The notes: generated from the letters alone by a model not told the origin. Shown: positions 6,999 to 63,165, numbered from the stretch's first letter. The stretch: DNA of 64,000 bases from a virus (IMGVR_UViG_3300033073_001657:29419-93418), one strand, 5' to 3'. Program-made: numbers and translations.

Positions 6999-8124
6999 TC
7001 TATTGACTGGATATAACATACATCAGTTCATAAAGGATCTCTTAAAAAAGAGATTCCCAGAAGACCGATTTAAACAAGAAGTATATGAATCGGGCGATAA
7101 GATAAACTTTGCCTGTCCATACTGTGGCGATTCTAAATCTGACTCTAGAAAAAAGAGAGGAAACTTATACCCAGACCGAGGATTCTATAAATGCTACAAC
7201 GATGGTTGTGGAGTAAAATCAGATATCCCTAAATTTATTTCTAAGTTTGCACTCAAATATTCATTAGGAGTACCTGATGTCAAGCCCGAAGTCAATTGGG
7301 TTCCTCAAACTTCTAAAAAGAAGAGAGGGTCTTTAATTGAGCTACTCATCAACAAGAATGCAAGTGACCACCTCTTGAAAATAGAAGAAGTCGCTCGTAG
7401 ATTTTCATTGACTCCATGTAGCGAGATTGAGCCAGAAACTGAACTTGGAATATTCATAAAGAATCGAGCTCTTGACACTCTTCCTGCATTTCAAAAGTGT
7501 AGTTATTTTGATTCGAGAGAAGACAAGATATATCTCTTTAACCTAGACCAGAGGACAGGCAAGATCCTAGGCTTTGCAATACGTCGAATTGGAGAAGGAA
7601 TTAGTGGACCGAAATATCTAATTAAAAACTATTCTGAGTTAAAAAAGAACGGACTTGTTCGAAATGTTGAAGATGATATTATCACTGATATCGATTCAAT
7701 CAACAACTATTTTAACGTGCTAAATGTTGACTTTTCAAAGCCCATTCTAGTGACAGAAGGTCAGATTGACGCAATGTTCCTAAATAATTCAATTGCGACC
7801 ACTGGTATTTCCAAAAGTAAACTCCTATTGGAAAATCTATTAAGTAAATCAAATACTTTAATCCTATTCGATAGCGACATGGCAGGTAAGAATCAATCAG
7901 TTGATCTAATTAAGAAAGGTTATCGAGTGTTCCTATGGAATAAAGTAATGGCTGATCTTCGTAAAAAATACAATTCGGATTATCGAAATGTCCGACTAAT
8001 CAAAGATGTTAACGACCTATATTCTTTCATGTTGAAACATGATGCGTCTCTTACATTTGATTCCTTTAATGAATTTGTTCTACAATACTTTTCAGAATCT
8101 CCACTAGATTTGCTTTATGTGTAA
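6991..8124 (+). CDS. DNA primase (zinc ribbon + TOPRIM)
   Basis: Zinc ribbon CPYCGDS...CYNDGC, TOPRIM motifs LVTEGQIDAM and ILFDSD. The ORF overlaps the polB stop by 8 nt. Confidence 0.7.
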   Translation: MIDLLTGYNIHQFIKDLLKKRFPEDRFKQEVYESGDKINFACPYCGDSKSDSRKKRGNLYPDRGFYKCYNDGCGVKSDIPKFISKFALKYSLGVPDVKPEVNWVPQTSKKKRGSLIELLINKNASDHLLKIEEVARRFSLTPCSEIEPETELGIFIKNRALDTLPAFQKCSYFDSREDKIYLFNLDQRTGKILGFAIRRIGEGISGPKYLIKNYSELKKNGLVRNVEDDIITDIDSINNYFNVLNVDFSKPILVTEGQIDAMFLNNSIATTGISKSKLLLENLLSKSNTLILFDSDMAGKNQSVDLIKKGYRVFLWNKVMADLRKKYNSDYRNVRLIKDVNDLYSFMLKHDASLTFDSFNEFVLQYFSESPLDLLYV

Positions 8125-9674: not shown

Positions 9675-11393
9675 ATGGCAGGATTCTTAGATACCTCAGG
9701 AAGAAGAGTAAGTAGCGCTCTATCAAACTTAAGTAAGTTTGGTACAAGACACGAAGACCTTTTGCTTAAAAATTCACAAGCAATCGGTTTTATTGAAAGT
9801 CAGTTACAGTCTCGTACTTCTAGGCTAAACTCGAACGATGAACTTCTTAAGTTCTCAATGGCGATATCCGATACTACTTCTCAATTAAGAACTAAGGCGA
9901 TAGCTTTCTTTCAATTAGATTATGTAGTAAAAAGAGAGCGATTACGAGACGTTGCAGCCAATGGTGAAATCGAATTTATCCTTGAAACCATCGTCGACGA
10001 TATGATCGTTTATGACGATGAACAACGTTTTATCTATCCTAAAGACCTTACTGGTAAGATGCTTTATCGAGGAGATACAAAAGAAGAACGTTTGAATTTT
10101 CAAGAAAAAGTACTTAGAAAATATAACGATAACTTTGAAAGAATTTACACTGCTTGGGGATTCGCTGAAGGCATTTCTGCATGGCAATATGCATTTCAAT
10201 TCTTAGTAGAAGGACACCTCTCTTTTGAGATTATCTATGATGACTTAGAAAAACCTAAAGAAGTAATTGGATTTAAGGAACTTGATCCTGCTAGTATTGC
10301 TCCTCAATTACAGAAGGACTCTAAAGGTAAGATTTTTCTACAGTGGTTACAATACGATCAACAGACTGGTTCTACCAGAGTTCTTAATGATTCTCAAGTA
10401 ATCTATATCTCGTATGCTAATCACTTTAGAACAAAGAGAGTAAGTTTCGTTGAACGTCTAATTAGATCTTTTAACCTACTAAGAATCATCGAACACAGTA
10501 AAGTTATTTGGCACGTGATGAATGCGCCTATTCGTTTAACAACAACTGTTCCAATCGGAAGTAAGAGTTTTCAAAAGGGTCAAGAAGACGTTCGTGAATT
10601 CTTAAACATGTTCAAAGAAGACATCTATTTTAATGGTGATTCTGGAGAGCTAAACGTAGACGGTAAACCAAATATCCTATTTTATAAGAATTATATTTTA
10701 CCAGTTAATGACCAGAACCAACAAGTAAAAATTGAGACTCTGCAGACTCCTGGACCTAACTTGTCTGGGTCAGAACTATTGAACTATTTTTACAAAAAAT
10801 TGAAAATGGATTCAAAGATTCCTTATTCAAGATGGGAAGGTCAGTCTGGTATGGGTGCATTTACTCTTAATGCTGAAGGTATTACTCGTGAAGAGGTACG
10901 TTATCAAAAATTTGTCAATCGATTAAGATCGGCTTTTTCAGAGATGATGGTTAAACCATGGTATTTGCAAATGTGTTTAGACTTTCCCGATCTAGCCGAC
11001 GACTATAAGTTTAACAATGCAATAGGAATCAAATTCAATAATGATAACGTCTTTGAAGAGATGAAGAAAAATGAAATTGAAGCTAAGCGAATTGCTTCGT
11101 TCCAAGCTAAGAAAGGAGTAATGAAAGATGACGGTACTCCATTCTTCTCTACTGAATACTTAATTAGAGAAGAGCTTAAGATGACTGAATCTGAGATCCA
11201 AGCCAATCAGACTTGGTTCGATCAACACATAGATGAGGAAGAGGAAGCAGCGGCGGCACCTGCCGGAGCCGCTCCAGGAGCACAACCGGCACCAGGAGGC
11301 GGAGCACCGGCCGCTCCAGGCGGAGAGGCACCAGCTGAAGGAGGAAGTGAAGTAAAAGAAGGTGGAGAAACTTCTGGAGAAGGGCAACTTTAA
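9675..11393 (+). CDS. large structural protein, possibly portal
   Basis: 572 aa. The C-terminal tail is low-complexity and Ala/Pro/Gly/Glu-rich. The size and the position before the virion block fit a portal, but no motif was recognised. Confidence 0.3.
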   Translation: MAGFLDTSGRRVSSALSNLSKFGTRHEDLLLKNSQAIGFIESQLQSRTSRLNSNDELLKFSMAISDTTSQLRTKAIAFFQLDYVVKRERLRDVAANGEIEFILETIVDDMIVYDDEQRFIYPKDLTGKMLYRGDTKEERLNFQEKVLRKYNDNFERIYTAWGFAEGISAWQYAFQFLVEGHLSFEIIYDDLEKPKEVIGFKELDPASIAPQLQKDSKGKIFLQWLQYDQQTGSTRVLNDSQVIYISYANHFRTKRVSFVERLIRSFNLLRIIEHSKVIWHVMNAPIRLTTTVPIGSKSFQKGQEDVREFLNMFKEDIYFNGDSGELNVDGKPNILFYKNYILPVNDQNQQVKIETLQTPGPNLSGSELLNYFYKKLKMDSKIPYSRWEGQSGMGAFTLNAEGITREEVRYQKFVNRLRSAFSEMMVKPWYLQMCLDFPDLADDYKFNNAIGIKFNNDNVFEEMKKNEIEAKRIASFQAKKGVMKDDGTPFFSTEYLIREELKMTESEIQANQTWFDQHIDEEEEAAAAPAGAAPGAQPAPGGGAPAAPGGEAPAEGGSEVKEGGETSGEGQL

Positions 11394-17153: not shown

Positions 17154-17400
17154 AAACGTAGATATTGATGTCGAGATAGAATTCGATGATATCATGGAAT
17201 ATATTAATGACCATGCATCGGATTCTGAACTAAATTCAATTCGTAAAGAGATTGGTGAAATATTTGCAGAAGAATCAGACAATGGACTTGACGGATCCTA
17301 TATTCGAGGAGAAAAGATTATTCTCTTGGAATTGGCTGCTAAAAAGTATACACTTGAGGAGCTAGAACAACGCCTTGGAAATAAATTTGATTTGATATAA
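17137..17400 (+). CDS. hypothetical protein
   Basis: 87-aa ORF. Confidence 0.4.
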   Translation: MSRMYKNVDIDVEIEFDDIMEYINDHASDSELNSIRKEIGEIFAEESDNGLDGSYIRGEKIILLELAAKKYTLEELEQRLGNKFDLI

Positions 17401-17432
17401 AAAAAGCCGAGTTTAAACTCGGCTTTTTTATT
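17401..17432. terminator. bidirectional rho-independent terminator
   Basis: An A-run precedes the stem agccgagt / actcggct and a T-run follows, between convergent genes. Confidence 0.65.
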
Positions 17433-18214
17433 TACATTCTATATGCTTCTTTAAATGAGGTGTATCCGATGGTAAATCTTCGCCACTCAATTTGTGAATC
17501 GGGTTCGACTCCTTCATCCATTAGGAATTTAATTAGATCCATTGCATTTTTTCGATCTACTGCAAGTAGTGGCATTCTTTCGCTCTCAAACATCTGAATA
17601 GCTCCATCATGAGTTATAAATCCATGTATTACGACTGTTCCCCAGTCGGAATCCTTTCCTACTATTTTAAAATTTGAACCAAATGAACTGCGAAGTTCAA
17701 GATCAGTAACTGATAAATTAACTTCATCTCTATCTTGTCCACCAATAGGCATCCCTATTAGTTTAACCTCAGTAACTTGATTAGTTCCGTATTGTTTTCT
17801 ATGAGATGCTACGCGATCAGCAAAAACGCCCATGTTTCTTCCTCGTAGATCAGTCTCAATTTCTCTCCACTTTTTACCAGATACTTCATTCACATAACTT
17901 TCGAAGGTCTTAACAAAAATATCCCTTTCTGAAAAAGGATCCATTTCTCTATGTGAAGGAACTGCTACACTATTTTTTAGAAAGTTATATACTTCTTGAA
18001 TATCATCAGCTGACGATGCAATATGATCTACTGCCCATTCATGACCACCTTTTAGGATTTCATCAACTTGAGTACGATCCATTTGTACCAATTCATCGAT
18101 TATTCTCTTCATGGTTTCCAAGTTTCCAAAAAACATGTAATTTAGATCAGAGCCAGACTCTGCACATTTATCTGAGCTTCCTCCACATCCACATGAACAT
18201 TCATTAATTCTCAT
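17432..18214 (-). CDS. hypothetical protein with N-terminal Cys cluster
   Basis: 260-aa ORF. Confidence 0.5.
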   Translation of the reverse strand: MRINECSCGCGGSSDKCAESGSDLNYMFFGNLETMKRIIDELVQMDRTQVDEILKGGHEWAVDHIASSADDIQEVYNFLKNSVAVPSHREMDPFSERDIFVKTFESYVNEVSGKKWREIETDLRGRNMGVFADRVASHRKQYGTNQVTEVKLIGMPIGGQDRDEVNLSVTDLELRSSFGSNFKIVGKDSDWGTVVIHGFITHDGAIQMFESERMPLLAVDRKNAMDLIKFLMDEGVEPDSQIEWRRFTIGYTSFKEAYRM

Positions 18215-37784: not shown

Positions 37785-37819
37785 TTAAAAATCTTTTAGT
37801 TATTTATTATAAAAGAGAG

Positions 37820-38326
37820 ATGGAAAAGATTATAACATTCACTAAAGTTAAGCTTCCATATGGTTGGTTGGGCAACATGTCCCCATATCCAATTGAATAT
37901 GATGGCAAGGAATGGAGAACGACGGAAGCCTTGTTCCAAGCGCTTCGATTTGAGGATGAAGATATACGTGAATTGATACGAAGTCAAAAGTCTCCGATGG
38001 CTGCAAAGATGATGGCAAAGAAACATCGTGAGTCAATGAAAGTTGAGCCACTTTCTGATGAAGACTATGGCAACATGGCCTTATGCTTGATCCTAAAACT
38101 CAAACATCATCCTGAACTAATAGATGCTCTTCTTGAAACTGGAGATTCAGTAATCGTTGAGGACGTTACTTCTAGGGGATCAAGAGGATCTAATCTTTAT
38201 TGGGGAGCGATGCTCGATGAGAATGGAAACTGGATCGGAGAAAATAAACTTGGAAGATCTTGGATGTATCTTAGAGAATTATATCAAGTTAGTGTAAACT
38301 CTCCTGAAAAAGAGAGTACAATATAA
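37820..38326 (+). CDS. NADAR (YbiA-like, DUF1768) domain protein
   Basis: [30 protein letters not shown]...SP..AK matches the NADAR consensus W.SN..P....G..y.s.Eh.fqa.kf. Confidence 0.55.
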
Positions 38327-38334
38327 AAGTTCTT

Positions 38335-38752
38335 TGAATATTGCATGAGCAGGTAGGAATTGGGTATGAATAAGCAACCTTGTGTTCTCAAGGCGCCCTT
38401 TGACCGAAAGCTCTGCTCTTAACTACTGACTGAATGTTGACACAGAGGAAACAATAGACGCTATCAAACCTTGGGGGTCTTTAACTTTGATAAGGACTCA
38501 GCAAGTTAGGAGGAACGGAATTGGGACATTGGGGTAATAACACGTCGAGCGACTGACACAAAAGGCCGAACCTTTGTCTGAAACTGTTTACAGCCAAGAG
38601 TATTCGATTCGATGCATAGTGTCGAGTCAACGGTAAGGTATTTGATTCCTTGAGGCTAATCATTCTGAATGGAGCCAAGATTAGGTAGAATATTCCAATT
38701 GGAAATGGATCAAGTAGTTATTAAGGCCCCTTCGGGGGCCTTTTTATTTTTG
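38335..38752 (+). ncRNA. candidate structured non-coding RNA (unclassified)
   Basis: About 430 bp with no credible ORF and visibly higher GC than the flanks. It contains local hairpins and ends in a strong UUCG-loop terminator at 38723-38752. Confidence 0.3.
38723..38752 (+). terminator. rho-independent terminator
   Basis: Stem aaggcccc / ggggcctt with loop ttcg, followed by tttttatttttg. Confidence 0.7.
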
Positions 38753-38769
38753 TAAAATAATTTAGAATA

Positions 38770-39156
38770 ATGGATATATTAGTAGACTTCGATGGGACTT
38801 GCACGACACATGACTTTCCAAAGGTAGGTAAAGAAATTGGCGCACCTGAAGTATTGAGAGACTTAGTATTAGCAGGACATAGACTAATCTTGTTCACCAT
38901 GCGTAGCGATACAAGTCAAGGTAATTATCTAAAGGACGCAGTTCGCTGGTTTGAAGAACAAGATATCCCACTATATGGGATTCAAGAAAATCCTACTCAA
39001 AAGGCATGGACAAGTTCGCCTAAGGCTTATGGCCAACTAATCATTGATGATATATGTTTAGGCATTCCGTTAATGGTGGATCCTGAACTATCAGACAGAC
39101 CCTTTGTTGATTGGGCAAAATGTCGAATCTTAATGGAGGAGTCAGGAATTCTTTAA
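38770..39156 (+). CDS. small HAD-like phosphatase
   Basis: VDFDGTC matches the DxDGT motif. Confidence 0.5.
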   Translation: MDILVDFDGTCTTHDFPKVGKEIGAPEVLRDLVLAGHRLILFTMRSDTSQGNYLKDAVRWFEEQDIPLYGIQENPTQKAWTSSPKAYGQLIIDDICLGIPLMVDPELSDRPFVDWAKCRILMEESGIL

Positions 39157-63054: not shown

Positions 63055-63165
63055 AGTCAGGTGGCGGAATGGTAGACGCACATCGGCAGGTGATTCTGAT
63101 TGAGGGTACACCGGCAGTCGAGGCCACAATCACATAGAATACAGGTTCGAATCCTGTCCTGACTA
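63055..63165 (+). tRNA. tRNA-like element (type-II/Leu-like D-arm) with non-canonical 61-nt anticodon/variable region
   Basis: A perfect 7-bp acceptor stem pairs AGTCAGG with CCTGACT. U8 is present. The D-arm GCGGAATGGTAGACGC matches tRNA-Leu GCGGAAUUGGUAGACGC. The T-arm is ACAGG-TTCGAAT-CCTGT with discriminator A. No canonical 5-bp/7-nt anticodon arm can be found between the D-arm and T-arm. Confidence 0.45.

What the first reader, a model, noticed from the sequence alone, without database searches (positions are those of the whole stretch)
38327..38769. GC-enriched 430-bp ORF-free island: candidate structured ncRNA between the NADAR and HAD genes
No plausible ORF covers 38327-38769. The only track ORF, 38481-38678 on the minus strand, has no promoter box and unremarkable composition. 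Base composition here is visibly richer in G and C than the surrounding genes, a classic signature of structured RNA in an AT-rich genome. The region contains the local hairpin ccttgtgttctcaagg and a repeated ggaattggg element. It ends in a strong UUCG-tetraloop terminator at 38723-38752. It sits inside the NAD/ADP-ribose accessory region.
Basis: seen in the sequence. Interest (0 to 1): 0.7.

Follow-up and report, generated by a model that had tools for sequence, protein, structure and literature searches.

The report
New structured RNA gene in phages
The gene-free stretch encodes a roughly 300-base, intricately folded non-coding RNA of a family not found in Rfam 15 or the papers searched; related uncultivated phages usually carry it inside their tRNA gene clusters, like the little-understood giant phage RNAs GOLLD and ROOL.

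Summary

- **Extent.** The conserved RNA is 38420-38720 on the + strand. A lineage-specific leader of about 90 nt precedes it and an intrinsic terminator (38723-38752) follows.
- **Family.** I found 13 further distinct copies, all on phage-like or unclassified metagenome contigs. None turned up in one motif scan of 185,579 bacterial and archaeal genomes or in a blastn search of 50,697 deposited phage genomes.
- **Context.** In most relatives the RNA sits inside a tRNA array on the tRNA strand. A tRNA often starts 1-4 nt after its closing helix.
- **Structure.** There are eleven helices and a loop-linker pseudoknot. On the seven helices and one loop that were counted, 91% of cells pair against 34-48% for slid controls. 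32 of 48 pairs changed on both sides.
- **Dimer signal.** One hairpin loop always holds a 6-nt palindrome (AUGCAU, GUGCAC or GUCGAC). This pattern indicates a symmetric kissing loop between two copies.
- **Exclusions.** Rfam 15 has no match: not GOLLD, ROOL, HEARO, tmRNA, RNase P or a group I intron. The element is not coding.
- **Weak points of the finding.** GC enrichment and folding energy are unremarkable. The NAD/ADP-ribose neighbourhood is probably incidental.
- **Function.** Unknown. My best guess is a stable, self-associating, trans-acting phage RNA of the GOLLD/ROOL kind.

The parts
38317..38322 (+). Possible -10 promoter box (TACAAT; TATAAT in L001 and L009), overlapping the last NADAR codons
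   Evidence: The box stays with the RNA in L009, where NADAR is absent. L010 has its own TATAAT ending 7 nt before the first base of the conserved RNA. No -35 box is evident and no transcription start was measured, so this is inferred.
38330..38419 (+). Lineage-specific 5' leader. It holds the hairpin at 38378-38393 and the first GGAATTGGG at 38356-38364
   Evidence: It aligns only with L001 and L009. L010 and all distant members lack it. Whether it belongs to the mature RNA is unknown.
38420..38720 (+). Conserved structured RNA, 301 nt, closed by helix H0 (38420-38427 with 38713-38720)
   Evidence: nhmmer E 9e-73. Covariance model R1 scores it 211.9 bits. H0 covaries in five sequence versions. 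The strand is set by frequent G-U pairs, the terminator and the tRNA strand in relatives.
38436..38445 (+). 5' strands of H1 (38436-38441, pairs with 38626-38631) and H2 (38442-38445, pairs with 38584-38587)
   Evidence: H1 has 6 pairs, 5 with changes on both sides, 100% paired. H2 has 8 model pairs, 6 with changes on both sides. The window forms only 4 of the H2 pairs.
38446..38463 (+). Junction J2/3, nearly invariant (AAYAAUARAYGCUA)
   Evidence: Invariant columns. Unpaired in the consensus.
38464..38518 (+). Arm H3 (38464-65 with 38517-18; 38469-74 with 38506-10) and H4 (38475-82 with 38492-99)
   Evidence: H3 is almost invariant, so it is uninformative. H4 covaries in 5 of 6 pairs and carries insertions of 24-45 nt in other lineages.
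38524..38579 (+). Helix H5 (38524-38532 with 38571-38579) closing a 38-nt, almost invariant loop (38533-38570; GGUAAUAAC..GUCGNGCGACUGACAYAAAAGGCCGAA)
   Evidence: 9 pairs, 7 with changes on both sides, including the fully re-coded helix of L032.
38595..38598 (+). CCAA in linker J2/7, the partner of the H10 loop (pseudoknot PK1, with 38699-38702)
   Evidence: Five compensated versions sit at the same place: AUUGG/CCAAU, CUUGG/CCAAG, CUAGG/CCUAG, AUAGG/CCUAU and CCUGA/UCAGG. The window has 4 bp.
38604..38625 (+). Hairpin H7 (38604-38610 with 38619-38625) with an 8-nt loop G-AUGCAU-A. The palindrome is at 38612-38617 and is the predicted kissing-loop dimerisation site
   Evidence: All 7 stem pairs changed on both sides. 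The loop palindrome is kept in 13 of 13 sequences as AUGCAU, GUGCAC or GUCGAC (columns 244/249 GC:8 AU:5; columns 246/247 GC:7 CG:6).
38638..38709 (+). 3' domain: H9 (38638-43 with 38688-93) enclosing H8 (38649-57 with 38673-79), then H10 (38694-97 with 38706-09) with loop AUUGGAAA
   Evidence: H9 and H10 are present in all 13 full-length members with different, complementary sequences. Examples for H9: GTATTT/GAATAT, ACGTCT/AGATGT, GTACTT/GAGTAC, ATGCT/AGTAT, ATGTTT/AAACAT, GTGAGAG/CTCTCAT. For H10: UCCA/UGGA, GGCA/UGUC, GGUA/UACC. H8 was read by eye.
38723..38752 (+). Intrinsic terminator (AAGGCCCC-UUCG-GGGGCCUU followed by a U-run)
   Evidence: L001, L009 and L010 have a different but complementary stem at the same position.

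Best explanation
The region is a gene for a stand-alone, non-coding, highly structured RNA of about 300 nt (38420-38720, + strand). The family is absent from Rfam 15 and was found only on phage-like and unclassified metagenome contigs.

**Expression (inferred).** In this phage it forms its own small unit: a -10-like box at the end of the NADAR gene, or read-through from NADAR, then a leader of about 90 nt, the RNA, and an intrinsic terminator. In most other carriers it lies inside a tRNA array. There it would be cut out of the tRNA precursor, with RNase P cleavage of the next tRNA setting its 3' end.

**Fold (shown by covariation).**
- A terminal helix joins the two ends.
- Two stacked helices lead to a three-way core with about 70 nearly invariant unpaired bases. 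These lie in a junction and a 38-nt loop.
- A peripheral domain is tied back to the core by a loop-linker pseudoknot.
- One hairpin loop carries a 6-nt palindrome that changes in evolution yet stays self-complementary.

**Mechanism I commit to (inferred).** Two copies join through that loop as a symmetric kissing complex, giving a dimer or larger assembly. The RNA then acts in trans during infection as a stable RNA or RNA-protein particle. It belongs to the same functional niche as GOLLD and ROOL, most likely connected with tRNA, translation or counter-defence rather than with the neighbouring NADAR and HAD genes.

**Sub-probabilities.**

| Claim | Probability |
|---|---|
| Real structured ncRNA | about 0.95 |
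| Family not previously described | about 0.85 |
| Self-association through the palindromic loop | about 0.6 |
| Role tied to tRNA or translation | about 0.35 |

The overall confidence given (0.8) refers to the core claim: a genuine, stand-alone structured ncRNA gene of a family not in Rfam 15, belonging to the tRNA-island phage RNA niche.
For: **Family and distribution.**
- Homologues at about 80% identity are in L001, L009 and L010.
- Distant ones came from the motif GACTGACANAAAAGGCCGA in IMG/VR and metagenomes.
- All 23 hits of that motif in bacterial and archaeal genomes are chance matches.
- INPHARED phages gave nothing.

**Context.**
- The RNA lies in tRNA arrays on the tRNA strand.
- A tRNA starts 1-4 nt after H0 in L016, L017, L018, L030, L033 and L041. 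In L031 the RNA starts about 3 nt after a tRNA-Leu.

**Structure.**
- RNAalifold predicts 46 pairs, 24 of them compensatory.
- My helices counted on A4: 91.0% of cells paired against 33.9-48.1% when partners are slid by 1-3 columns. 32 of 48 pairs changed on both sides against 2-12. The covariation score is 0.426 against 0.045-0.103. No shuffle in 500 reached the observed value on four of the five measures.
- H0, H9, H10 and PK1 each occur in three or more compensated versions.
- Segment lengths between anchors are almost constant across lineages.

**Self-association.**
- The palindrome switches between AUGCAU, GUGCAC and GUCGAC.
- The same signature was used to support intermolecular kissing loops in OLE and GOLLD (PMC12286853).

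**Not coding.**

**Separation from noise.** Model R1 scores members at 142-275 bits and everything else at 23 bits or less.

**Independence from neighbours.** L009 keeps the RNA without NADAR. The site upstream of the HAD gene holds other cargo in L002-L008.
Against: - There are no expression data. The promoter, the transcript ends and processing are all inferred.
- Folding energies are ordinary (z -1.10 and -0.26).
- The family is small: 14 distinct copies in about five lineages, with an effective sequence number of 1.97. Covariation therefore rests on a limited number of independent events.
- No R-scape-type test was available.
- The window copy is somewhat weaker than others. H2 has 4 bp, H3 has two mismatches and PK1 has 4 bp.
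- The minimal member L032 lacks the palindromic hairpin, so dimerisation cannot be essential to the core.
- A palindrome could also be a protein-binding or restriction site.
- Function is argued by analogy only. At 300 nt it is much smaller than ROOL or GOLLD.
Confidence: 0.8

Rival explanations
1. It is a ribozyme or ligand-binding RNA. The invariant three-way core (junction J2/3 plus the 38-nt loop) would be an active site or binding pocket. The peripheral domain would only stabilise it.
For: About 70 unpaired positions are invariant or nearly so across lineages whose helices have been fully re-coded. This is typical of catalytic or ligand-binding cores. L032 keeps only this core: H2, H3/H4 and H5, about 165 nt, between two genes. 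The tRNA-array setting would suit an RNA that acts on tRNA precursors.
Against: No match to any ribozyme or riboswitch model in Rfam 15, even at E up to 10. No consistent downstream gene, as a riboswitch would have. No cleavage site or ligand can be proposed. This reading is compatible with, not exclusive of, the main explanation.
Confidence: 0.2
2. It is a cis-acting part of a messenger RNA: a 3' UTR element of NADAR, or a leader or attenuator controlling the downstream HAD-like gene.
For: It lies on the same strand directly after NADAR and 50 nt before the HAD-like gene. In L032 the core lies 30-40 nt upstream of an ORF and ends in a helix followed by a U-run.
Against: L009 keeps the RNA with NADAR deleted. 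Most members lie between tRNAs with neither gene nearby. A strong terminator separates it from the HAD gene. Relatives L002-L008 have the HAD gene without the RNA.
Confidence: 0.05
3. It is a detached or divergent piece of a GOLLD RNA, for example a counterpart of GOLLD's poorly conserved 5' region, rather than a separate family.
For: In L016 a GOLLD-like RNA lies about 600 nt downstream in the same tRNA array (Rfam RF02032, 131 bits, E 7e-36, below the gathering score of 150, with a tRNA-Asn embedded). The Rfam model covers only GOLLD's 3' region, and the 5' region is described as less conserved (PMC12286853).
Against: No GOLLD 3' region was found anywhere in the 64-kb window (E up to 1) or in five other loci (E up to 0.1). 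There is no sequence similarity to the GOLLD env-38 5' region or to the 440 nt upstream of the L016 GOLLD match. The RNA closes on itself through H0 and is bounded by tRNAs or by a promoter and terminator.
Confidence: 0.05
4. It is not a functional RNA: a decayed gene, or conserved DNA such as a replication, packaging or protein-binding site.
For: The palindromes (ATGCAT, GTGCAC, GTCGAC, CCAATTGG) could be DNA sites. The locus is a hot-spot for gene swapping. Single-sequence folding is unremarkable.
Against: Compensatory changes occur in nine of the eleven helices (H3 is nearly invariant; H8 was read by eye only). Many G-U pairs work on one strand only, for example four positions with 12-13 G-U pairs each. 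Lengths are constant, there is no ORF or codon signal, and boundaries abut tRNAs precisely.
Confidence: 0.03

Closest known systems
GOLLD RNA (Rfam RF02032)
   Same: Phage-borne, often in or next to tRNA islands. Many helices supported by covariation. Symmetric kissing loops whose palindromes switch in evolution (PMC12286853). One carrier (L016) has both RNAs in one tRNA array.
   Different: No model match and no sequence similarity to either half. About 300 nt instead of more than 800. No disordered linker holding tRNAs. Only one palindromic loop, which predicts a dimer rather than a 14-mer cage.
ROOL RNA (Rfam family)
   Same: Found in phages and prophages near tRNA islands. Ornate, with pseudoknots, no known protein partner, and covariation-detected loop contacts that proved to be intermolecular (PMC12286853). 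The PK1 contact here could likewise be within or between molecules.
   Different: No Rfam match. About half the size. Unrelated sequence and helix order.
HIV-1 dimerisation initiation site and other palindromic kissing loops (from my own knowledge, not tested here)
   Same: A hairpin loop with a 6-nt self-complementary core flanked by purines. GUGCAC is even one of the two common HIV-1 variants.
   Different: 8-nt loop rather than 9-nt. It is part of a 300-nt folded phage RNA, not a viral genome leader. Dimerisation has not been demonstrated.
Stable RNAs encoded in the phage T4 tRNA cluster (species 1 and 2; from my own knowledge)
   Same: Non-tRNA stable RNAs encoded among phage tRNA genes and released by tRNA-processing enzymes, with unknown function.
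   Different: Much smaller, about 120-140 nt. No sequence match to any deposited phage, T4 included. Not compared structurally.

Membership tests
GOLLD (RF02032) | Match to the covariance model of the conserved 3' region at or above the gathering score (150 bits) | tested here: not met
   No GOLLD match in 38200-38900 at E up to 10 or anywhere in the window at E up to 1. The same search detects a GOLLD-like RNA in L016 (131 bits), so it has the needed sensitivity.
GOLLD (RF02032) | Similarity to a GOLLD 5' region | tested here: not met
   nhmmer and blastn against the env-38 5' region and the L016 upstream 440 nt gave nothing beyond chance words. Sequence only; the fold was not compared.
GOLLD / ROOL kind (ornate phage RNAs of tRNA islands) | Phage-encoded and located in or beside tRNA arrays | tested here: met
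   9 of 14 distinct copies lie inside tRNA arrays on the tRNA strand (L016, L017, L018, L023, L027, L028, L030, L033, L041) and a tenth, L031, abuts a tRNA-Leu. The window copy itself is not in an array; the nearest tRNA-like gene is 24 kb away.
GOLLD / ROOL kind | Forms RNA-only homo-oligomers | not testable with these tools
   Only indirect evidence: the palindromic loop that covaries while staying self-complementary.
ROOL | Match to the Rfam covariance model | tested here: not met
   No match.
tmRNA | tRNA-like domain (acceptor stem plus T-arm) and a tag reading frame, detected by ARAGORN or Rfam RF00023 | tested here: not met
   ARAGORN finds none in the window or over the element in relatives. 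No Rfam match on the element. No T-loop motif in the sequence.
RNase P RNA, group I intron, HEARO/omega RNA, known riboswitches | Match to the respective Rfam models. For HEARO, also an adjacent IscB-type gene | tested here: not met
   All 4227 Rfam 15 models were scanned at E up to 10. The only hits in the window region are weak matches to the terminator and one to the leader; the L033, L041, L016 and L031 scan had none on the element. No nuclease gene is adjacent.
Cis-regulatory leader or riboswitch | Constant position upstream of one gene family | tested here: not met
   Neighbours differ: NADAR and HAD (window, L001), HAD only (L009), tRNAs (most members), unrelated small ORFs (L032).
Intrinsic (rho-independent) terminator, for 38723-38752 only | G+C-rich stem-loop followed by a U-run, conserved in position | tested here: met
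   (8 pairs, 6 G-C, UUCG loop, T-run). Compensatory stem in L001, L009 and L010.

The most novel reading that the evidence does not exclude
This is a third, compact class of self-assembling phage RNA beside GOLLD and ROOL. It would be a 300-nt RNA released from tRNA precursors that dimerises, or builds larger particles, through a palindromic kissing loop and a possibly intermolecular loop-linker contact. Its invariant core would bind or act on a component of the tRNA or translation machinery during infection.
Probability: 0.35. Interest if true: 0.8.

Novelty: new variant of a known kind. Interest (0 to 1): 0.62.

Why it matters
Large, intricately folded bacterial and phage RNAs without a known function are few: OLE, GOLLD, ROOL, raiA and HEARO. 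Each has led to unexpected biology, most recently protein-free RNA cages.

This RNA has advantages as a new case:
- It is a small, well-delimited example from the same niche, the phage tRNA islands.
- Its boundaries are clear and a natural minimal version exists (L032).
- Its predicted dimerisation loop can be tested with one pair of compensatory mutants.
- At 300 nt it is easy to synthesise and suited to cryo-EM or crystallography.
- It co-occurs with GOLLD in one phage, which gives a handle on what these tRNA-island RNAs do.

For genome annotation, it shows that 'empty' intergenic stretches in large uncultivated phages can hold RNA genes that current Rfam models miss.

Tried and rejected
- **Rfam.** Searched at gathering and at permissive thresholds on the window and on nine related loci. 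Nothing lay on the element except terminator look-alikes.
- **ARAGORN.** No tmRNA or tRNA on the element.
- **blastn against 50,697 phage genomes.** No match for the element. Only the HAD-like gene matches, in phage PAU and a crAss-like phage.
- **Promoter motif.** GTATAATAGA is not enriched in the window. A Bacteroidota-type TAnnTTTG promoter fits L010 and L032 by eye but not the window, so I did not pursue it.
- **Alternative pairing.** ACAAAAGG/CCUUUGU inside the H5 loop looked compensatory at first. Helix H5 explains it better.
- **H0 search.** The first automated run picked spurious helices. It was redone anchored on the CUGAAU motif.
- **More members.** Three further IMG/VR pattern scans found no new members. 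The last returned 111 stretches, of which those not already known as members scored as noise. The IMG/VR motif hit L024 also proved a chance match.
- **GOLLD 5' region.** Comparison was negative.
- **Literature.** Three full-text searches turned up no description of this RNA. The virus-wide catalogue of candidate RNAs (PMC10690425) holds only motifs of 151 nt or less.
- **Other tertiary contacts.** I looked by eye for pairings of the invariant J2/3 and L5 bases. The bases do not vary, so nothing can be concluded.

Full report
**1. The observation**

The stretch 38327-38769 lies between a NADAR gene (37820-38326, Pfam PF08719, E 7e-19) and a 128-aa gene (38770-39156). Both are on the + strand. 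The second gene begins MDILVDFDGT, a HAD-like motif by my knowledge. It matches PHROG 1238 and PDB 2obb but no Pfam family.

The only sizeable ORF in the stretch is a 65-aa TTG-start ORF on the minus strand. It has no family match. The hairpin (38378-38393), both GGAATTGGG copies (38356, 38517) and the UUCG terminator (38723-38742 plus U-run) are all present.

GC is 0.411 against a window mean of 0.370, only the 89th percentile. Predicted folding energy is ordinary, with z = -0.79 for the region and -1.10 for the exact RNA.

**2. Relatives**

No deposited phage genome matches the stretch. Searching IMG/VR with the flanking proteins gave loci in which the stretch is about 80% identical: L001, L009 and L010.

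L009 has the element but no NADAR gene. L010 has replaced the first 90 nt and carries a TATAAT box directly before the conserved part. L002-L008 have the HAD-like gene but other cargo in place of the element: a 470-aa protein, or a small membrane protein plus a roughly 300-aa protein I did not classify. So the site is a swap hot-spot and the element moves as a unit of its own.

A motif from the most conserved core (GACTGACANAAAAGGCCGA) retrieved distant copies:

| Source | Loci |
|---|---|
| IMG/VR | L016, L017, L018, L020/L023 |
| Metagenomes | L027, L028 (same as L042), L030, L031, L032, L033, L041 |

The 23 hits in 185,579 bacterial and archaeal species genomes are all chance matches to the motif alone. 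That leaves 14 distinct copies in about five lineages, all on phage-like or unclassified metagenome contigs. The window holds one copy.

**3. Context**

In nine of the thirteen relatives the element lies inside a tRNA array, on the strand of the tRNAs. A tenth, L031, starts about 3 nt after a tRNA-Leu. The next tRNA starts 1-4 nt after the element's last paired base in L016, L017, L018, L030, L033 and L041.

This fixes the ends of the RNA independently of any folding. It also implies, by inference, release by the tRNA-processing enzymes. In the window's lineage the same RNA has instead a -10-like box, a leader and a terminator.

**4. Structure**

The distances between conserved anchors are almost constant across lineages: 17, 19, 21, 27 and 58-61 nt. 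RNAalifold on a MAFFT alignment predicted 46 pairs, 24 of them with compensatory changes.

I refined this by hand into H0-H5 and H7-H10. I counted seven of those helices (H1, H2, the two parts of H3, the outer part of H4, H5, H7) and the loop palindrome on alignment A4 with the pair-counting tool.

| Measure | Observed | 3' partners slid by 1-3 columns |
|---|---|---|
| Cells paired | 91.0% | 33.9-48.1% |
| Pairs changed on both sides | 32 of 48 | 2-12 |
| Covariation score | 0.426 | 0.045-0.103 |

No shuffle in 500 reached the observed value on four of the five measures. The slid control keeps the relatedness of the sequences, so the signal is not a phylogenetic artefact.

Other structural points:
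- H0 occurs in five compensated versions, H9 in at least seven and H10 in three.
- The first five bases of the H10 loop pair with the linker between H2 and H7. Five compensated Watson-Crick versions sit at the same position. The window has 4 bp.
- Frequent G-U pairs fix the + strand. Four positions have 12-13 G-U pairs each.
- About 70 unpaired bases are invariant or nearly so, in junction J2/3 and the 38-nt H5 loop.
- L032 is a natural minimal version, with H2, H3/H4 and H5 only.
- A covariance model built from A4 scores members at 142-275 bits (window 211.9) and everything else at 23 bits or less.

**5. The palindromic loop**

The 8-nt loop of H7 reads as follows:

| Lineage | Loop |
|---|---|
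| Window group | G-AUGCAU-A |
| L016, L031 | A-GUGCAC-G |
| L023 | A-AUGCAU-G |
| L017/L018 group | G-GUCGAC-A |

Positions 1/6 switch between A-U and G-C, and positions 3/4 between G-C and C-G. Adjacent bases of one loop cannot pair with each other, so this covariation points to pairing between two copies. The same argument was used for OLE L9.3 and GOLLD L21a, where cryo-EM confirmed symmetric kissing loops (PMC12286853). This is prediction, not proof.

**6. What it is not**

- Not coding. The ORF is broken in relatives and there is no codon periodicity.
- Not tmRNA or tRNA.
- Not any Rfam 15 family at E up to 10, neither in the window nor in relatives.
- Not GOLLD. L016 carries a GOLLD-like RNA about 600 nt downstream in the same array (131 bits, with an embedded tRNA-Asn). 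The new RNA shares no sequence with either GOLLD half. No GOLLD 3' region occurs in the window or in the five other loci scanned for it.
- Not a leader of a particular gene, because the neighbours differ.

Full-text searches found no description of it.

**7. How it probably works**

- *Shown:* a conserved, strand-specific, multi-helix RNA fold with closed ends, carried only by phage-like contigs and mostly among tRNA genes.
- *Inferred:* it accumulates as a stable RNA, from its own unit here and from tRNA precursors elsewhere. It self-associates through the H7 loop.
- *Guessed by analogy* with GOLLD and ROOL, which share the niche and whose function is also unknown: it acts in trans on the tRNA or translation apparatus, or against host defence.

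The invariant core could equally be a catalytic or ligand-binding site. That rival is compatible with the rest. The NADAR and HAD neighbourhood is most likely coincidental.

**8. The host phage**

The portal protein (9675-11393) is 31-38% identical to those of uncultivated huge phages and Prevotella Lak phages. The window also encodes a helicase, a DNA polymerase and a nicotinamide phosphoribosyltransferase. The host is unknown.

**9. Verdict**

This is a genuine structured ncRNA gene of a family not found in Rfam 15 or the papers searched. It is best placed beside GOLLD and ROOL as a compact new class of tRNA-island phage RNA. The family is rare, no expression data exist, and its function remains open.

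Noticed in passing
window 63055-63165 (+): A tRNA-like gene of 111 nt. Rfam tRNA scores it 41.7 bits with 55 nt in place of the 17 anticodon-arm positions, and ARAGORN misses it. By my knowledge its D-arm resembles bacterial tRNA-Leu. Similar over-long tRNA-like genes (106-120 nt) lie 74-76 nt upstream of the new RNA in L017, L030, L033 and L041, and another lies further upstream in the L018 array.
   Followed up: partly
L016 6324-6813 (-): A GOLLD-like RNA with a tRNA-Asn embedded in its linker (RF02032, 131 bits, E 7e-36, below the gathering score of 150). It shares a tRNA array with the new RNA (7409-7766). The 440 nt upstream of the match may be its unmodelled 5' region.
   Followed up: partly
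window 37810-38770 and the same site in L002-L010: The site just upstream of the HAD-like gene is a cargo-swap hot-spot. It holds NADAR plus the RNA (window, L001), the RNA alone (L009), a 470-aa protein (L003/L004), or a small membrane protein plus a roughly 300-aa protein (one ORF in L002, two ORFs of 124 and 167 aa in L005; presumably the same in L006-L008, not classified).
   Followed up: partly
L018 10000-10072 (-): A tRNA with anticodon CTA (ARAGORN labels it tRNA-Pyl), that is an amber-suppressor type. ARAGORN also calls tRNAs with odd anticodon loops in L016, L018, L027, L028 and L042. Some carrier phages may recode a stop codon.
   Followed up: no
L032 9082-9278 (-): A natural minimal version of the RNA of about 165 nt (H2, H3/H4, H5 and the invariant loop). 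It lies between two small ORFs on a very AT-rich contig without tRNAs, is preceded by TATATTTG and TATGATAAT boxes, and ends in a helix followed by a U-run.
   Followed up: partly
window 17332-17534: Weak Rfam matches on both strands to enterobacterial sRNA models (STnc430 at 37 bits, E 0.03; HrrF). They sit at the junction with the ORF at 17432-18214. Most likely a bidirectional terminator-like hairpin.
   Followed up: no
The portal protein is closest (31-38% identity) to uncultivated huge phages and Lak phages.
   Followed up: partly
window 38545-38554 and 38564-38567: Inside the invariant loop, GUCGNGCGAC is a near-palindrome. The central AG or UG could form tandem G-A or G-U pairs in a self-duplex. 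GGCC is a 4-nt palindrome. Either could be a further contact between copies, but the bases hardly vary, so there is no covariation evidence.
   Followed up: no
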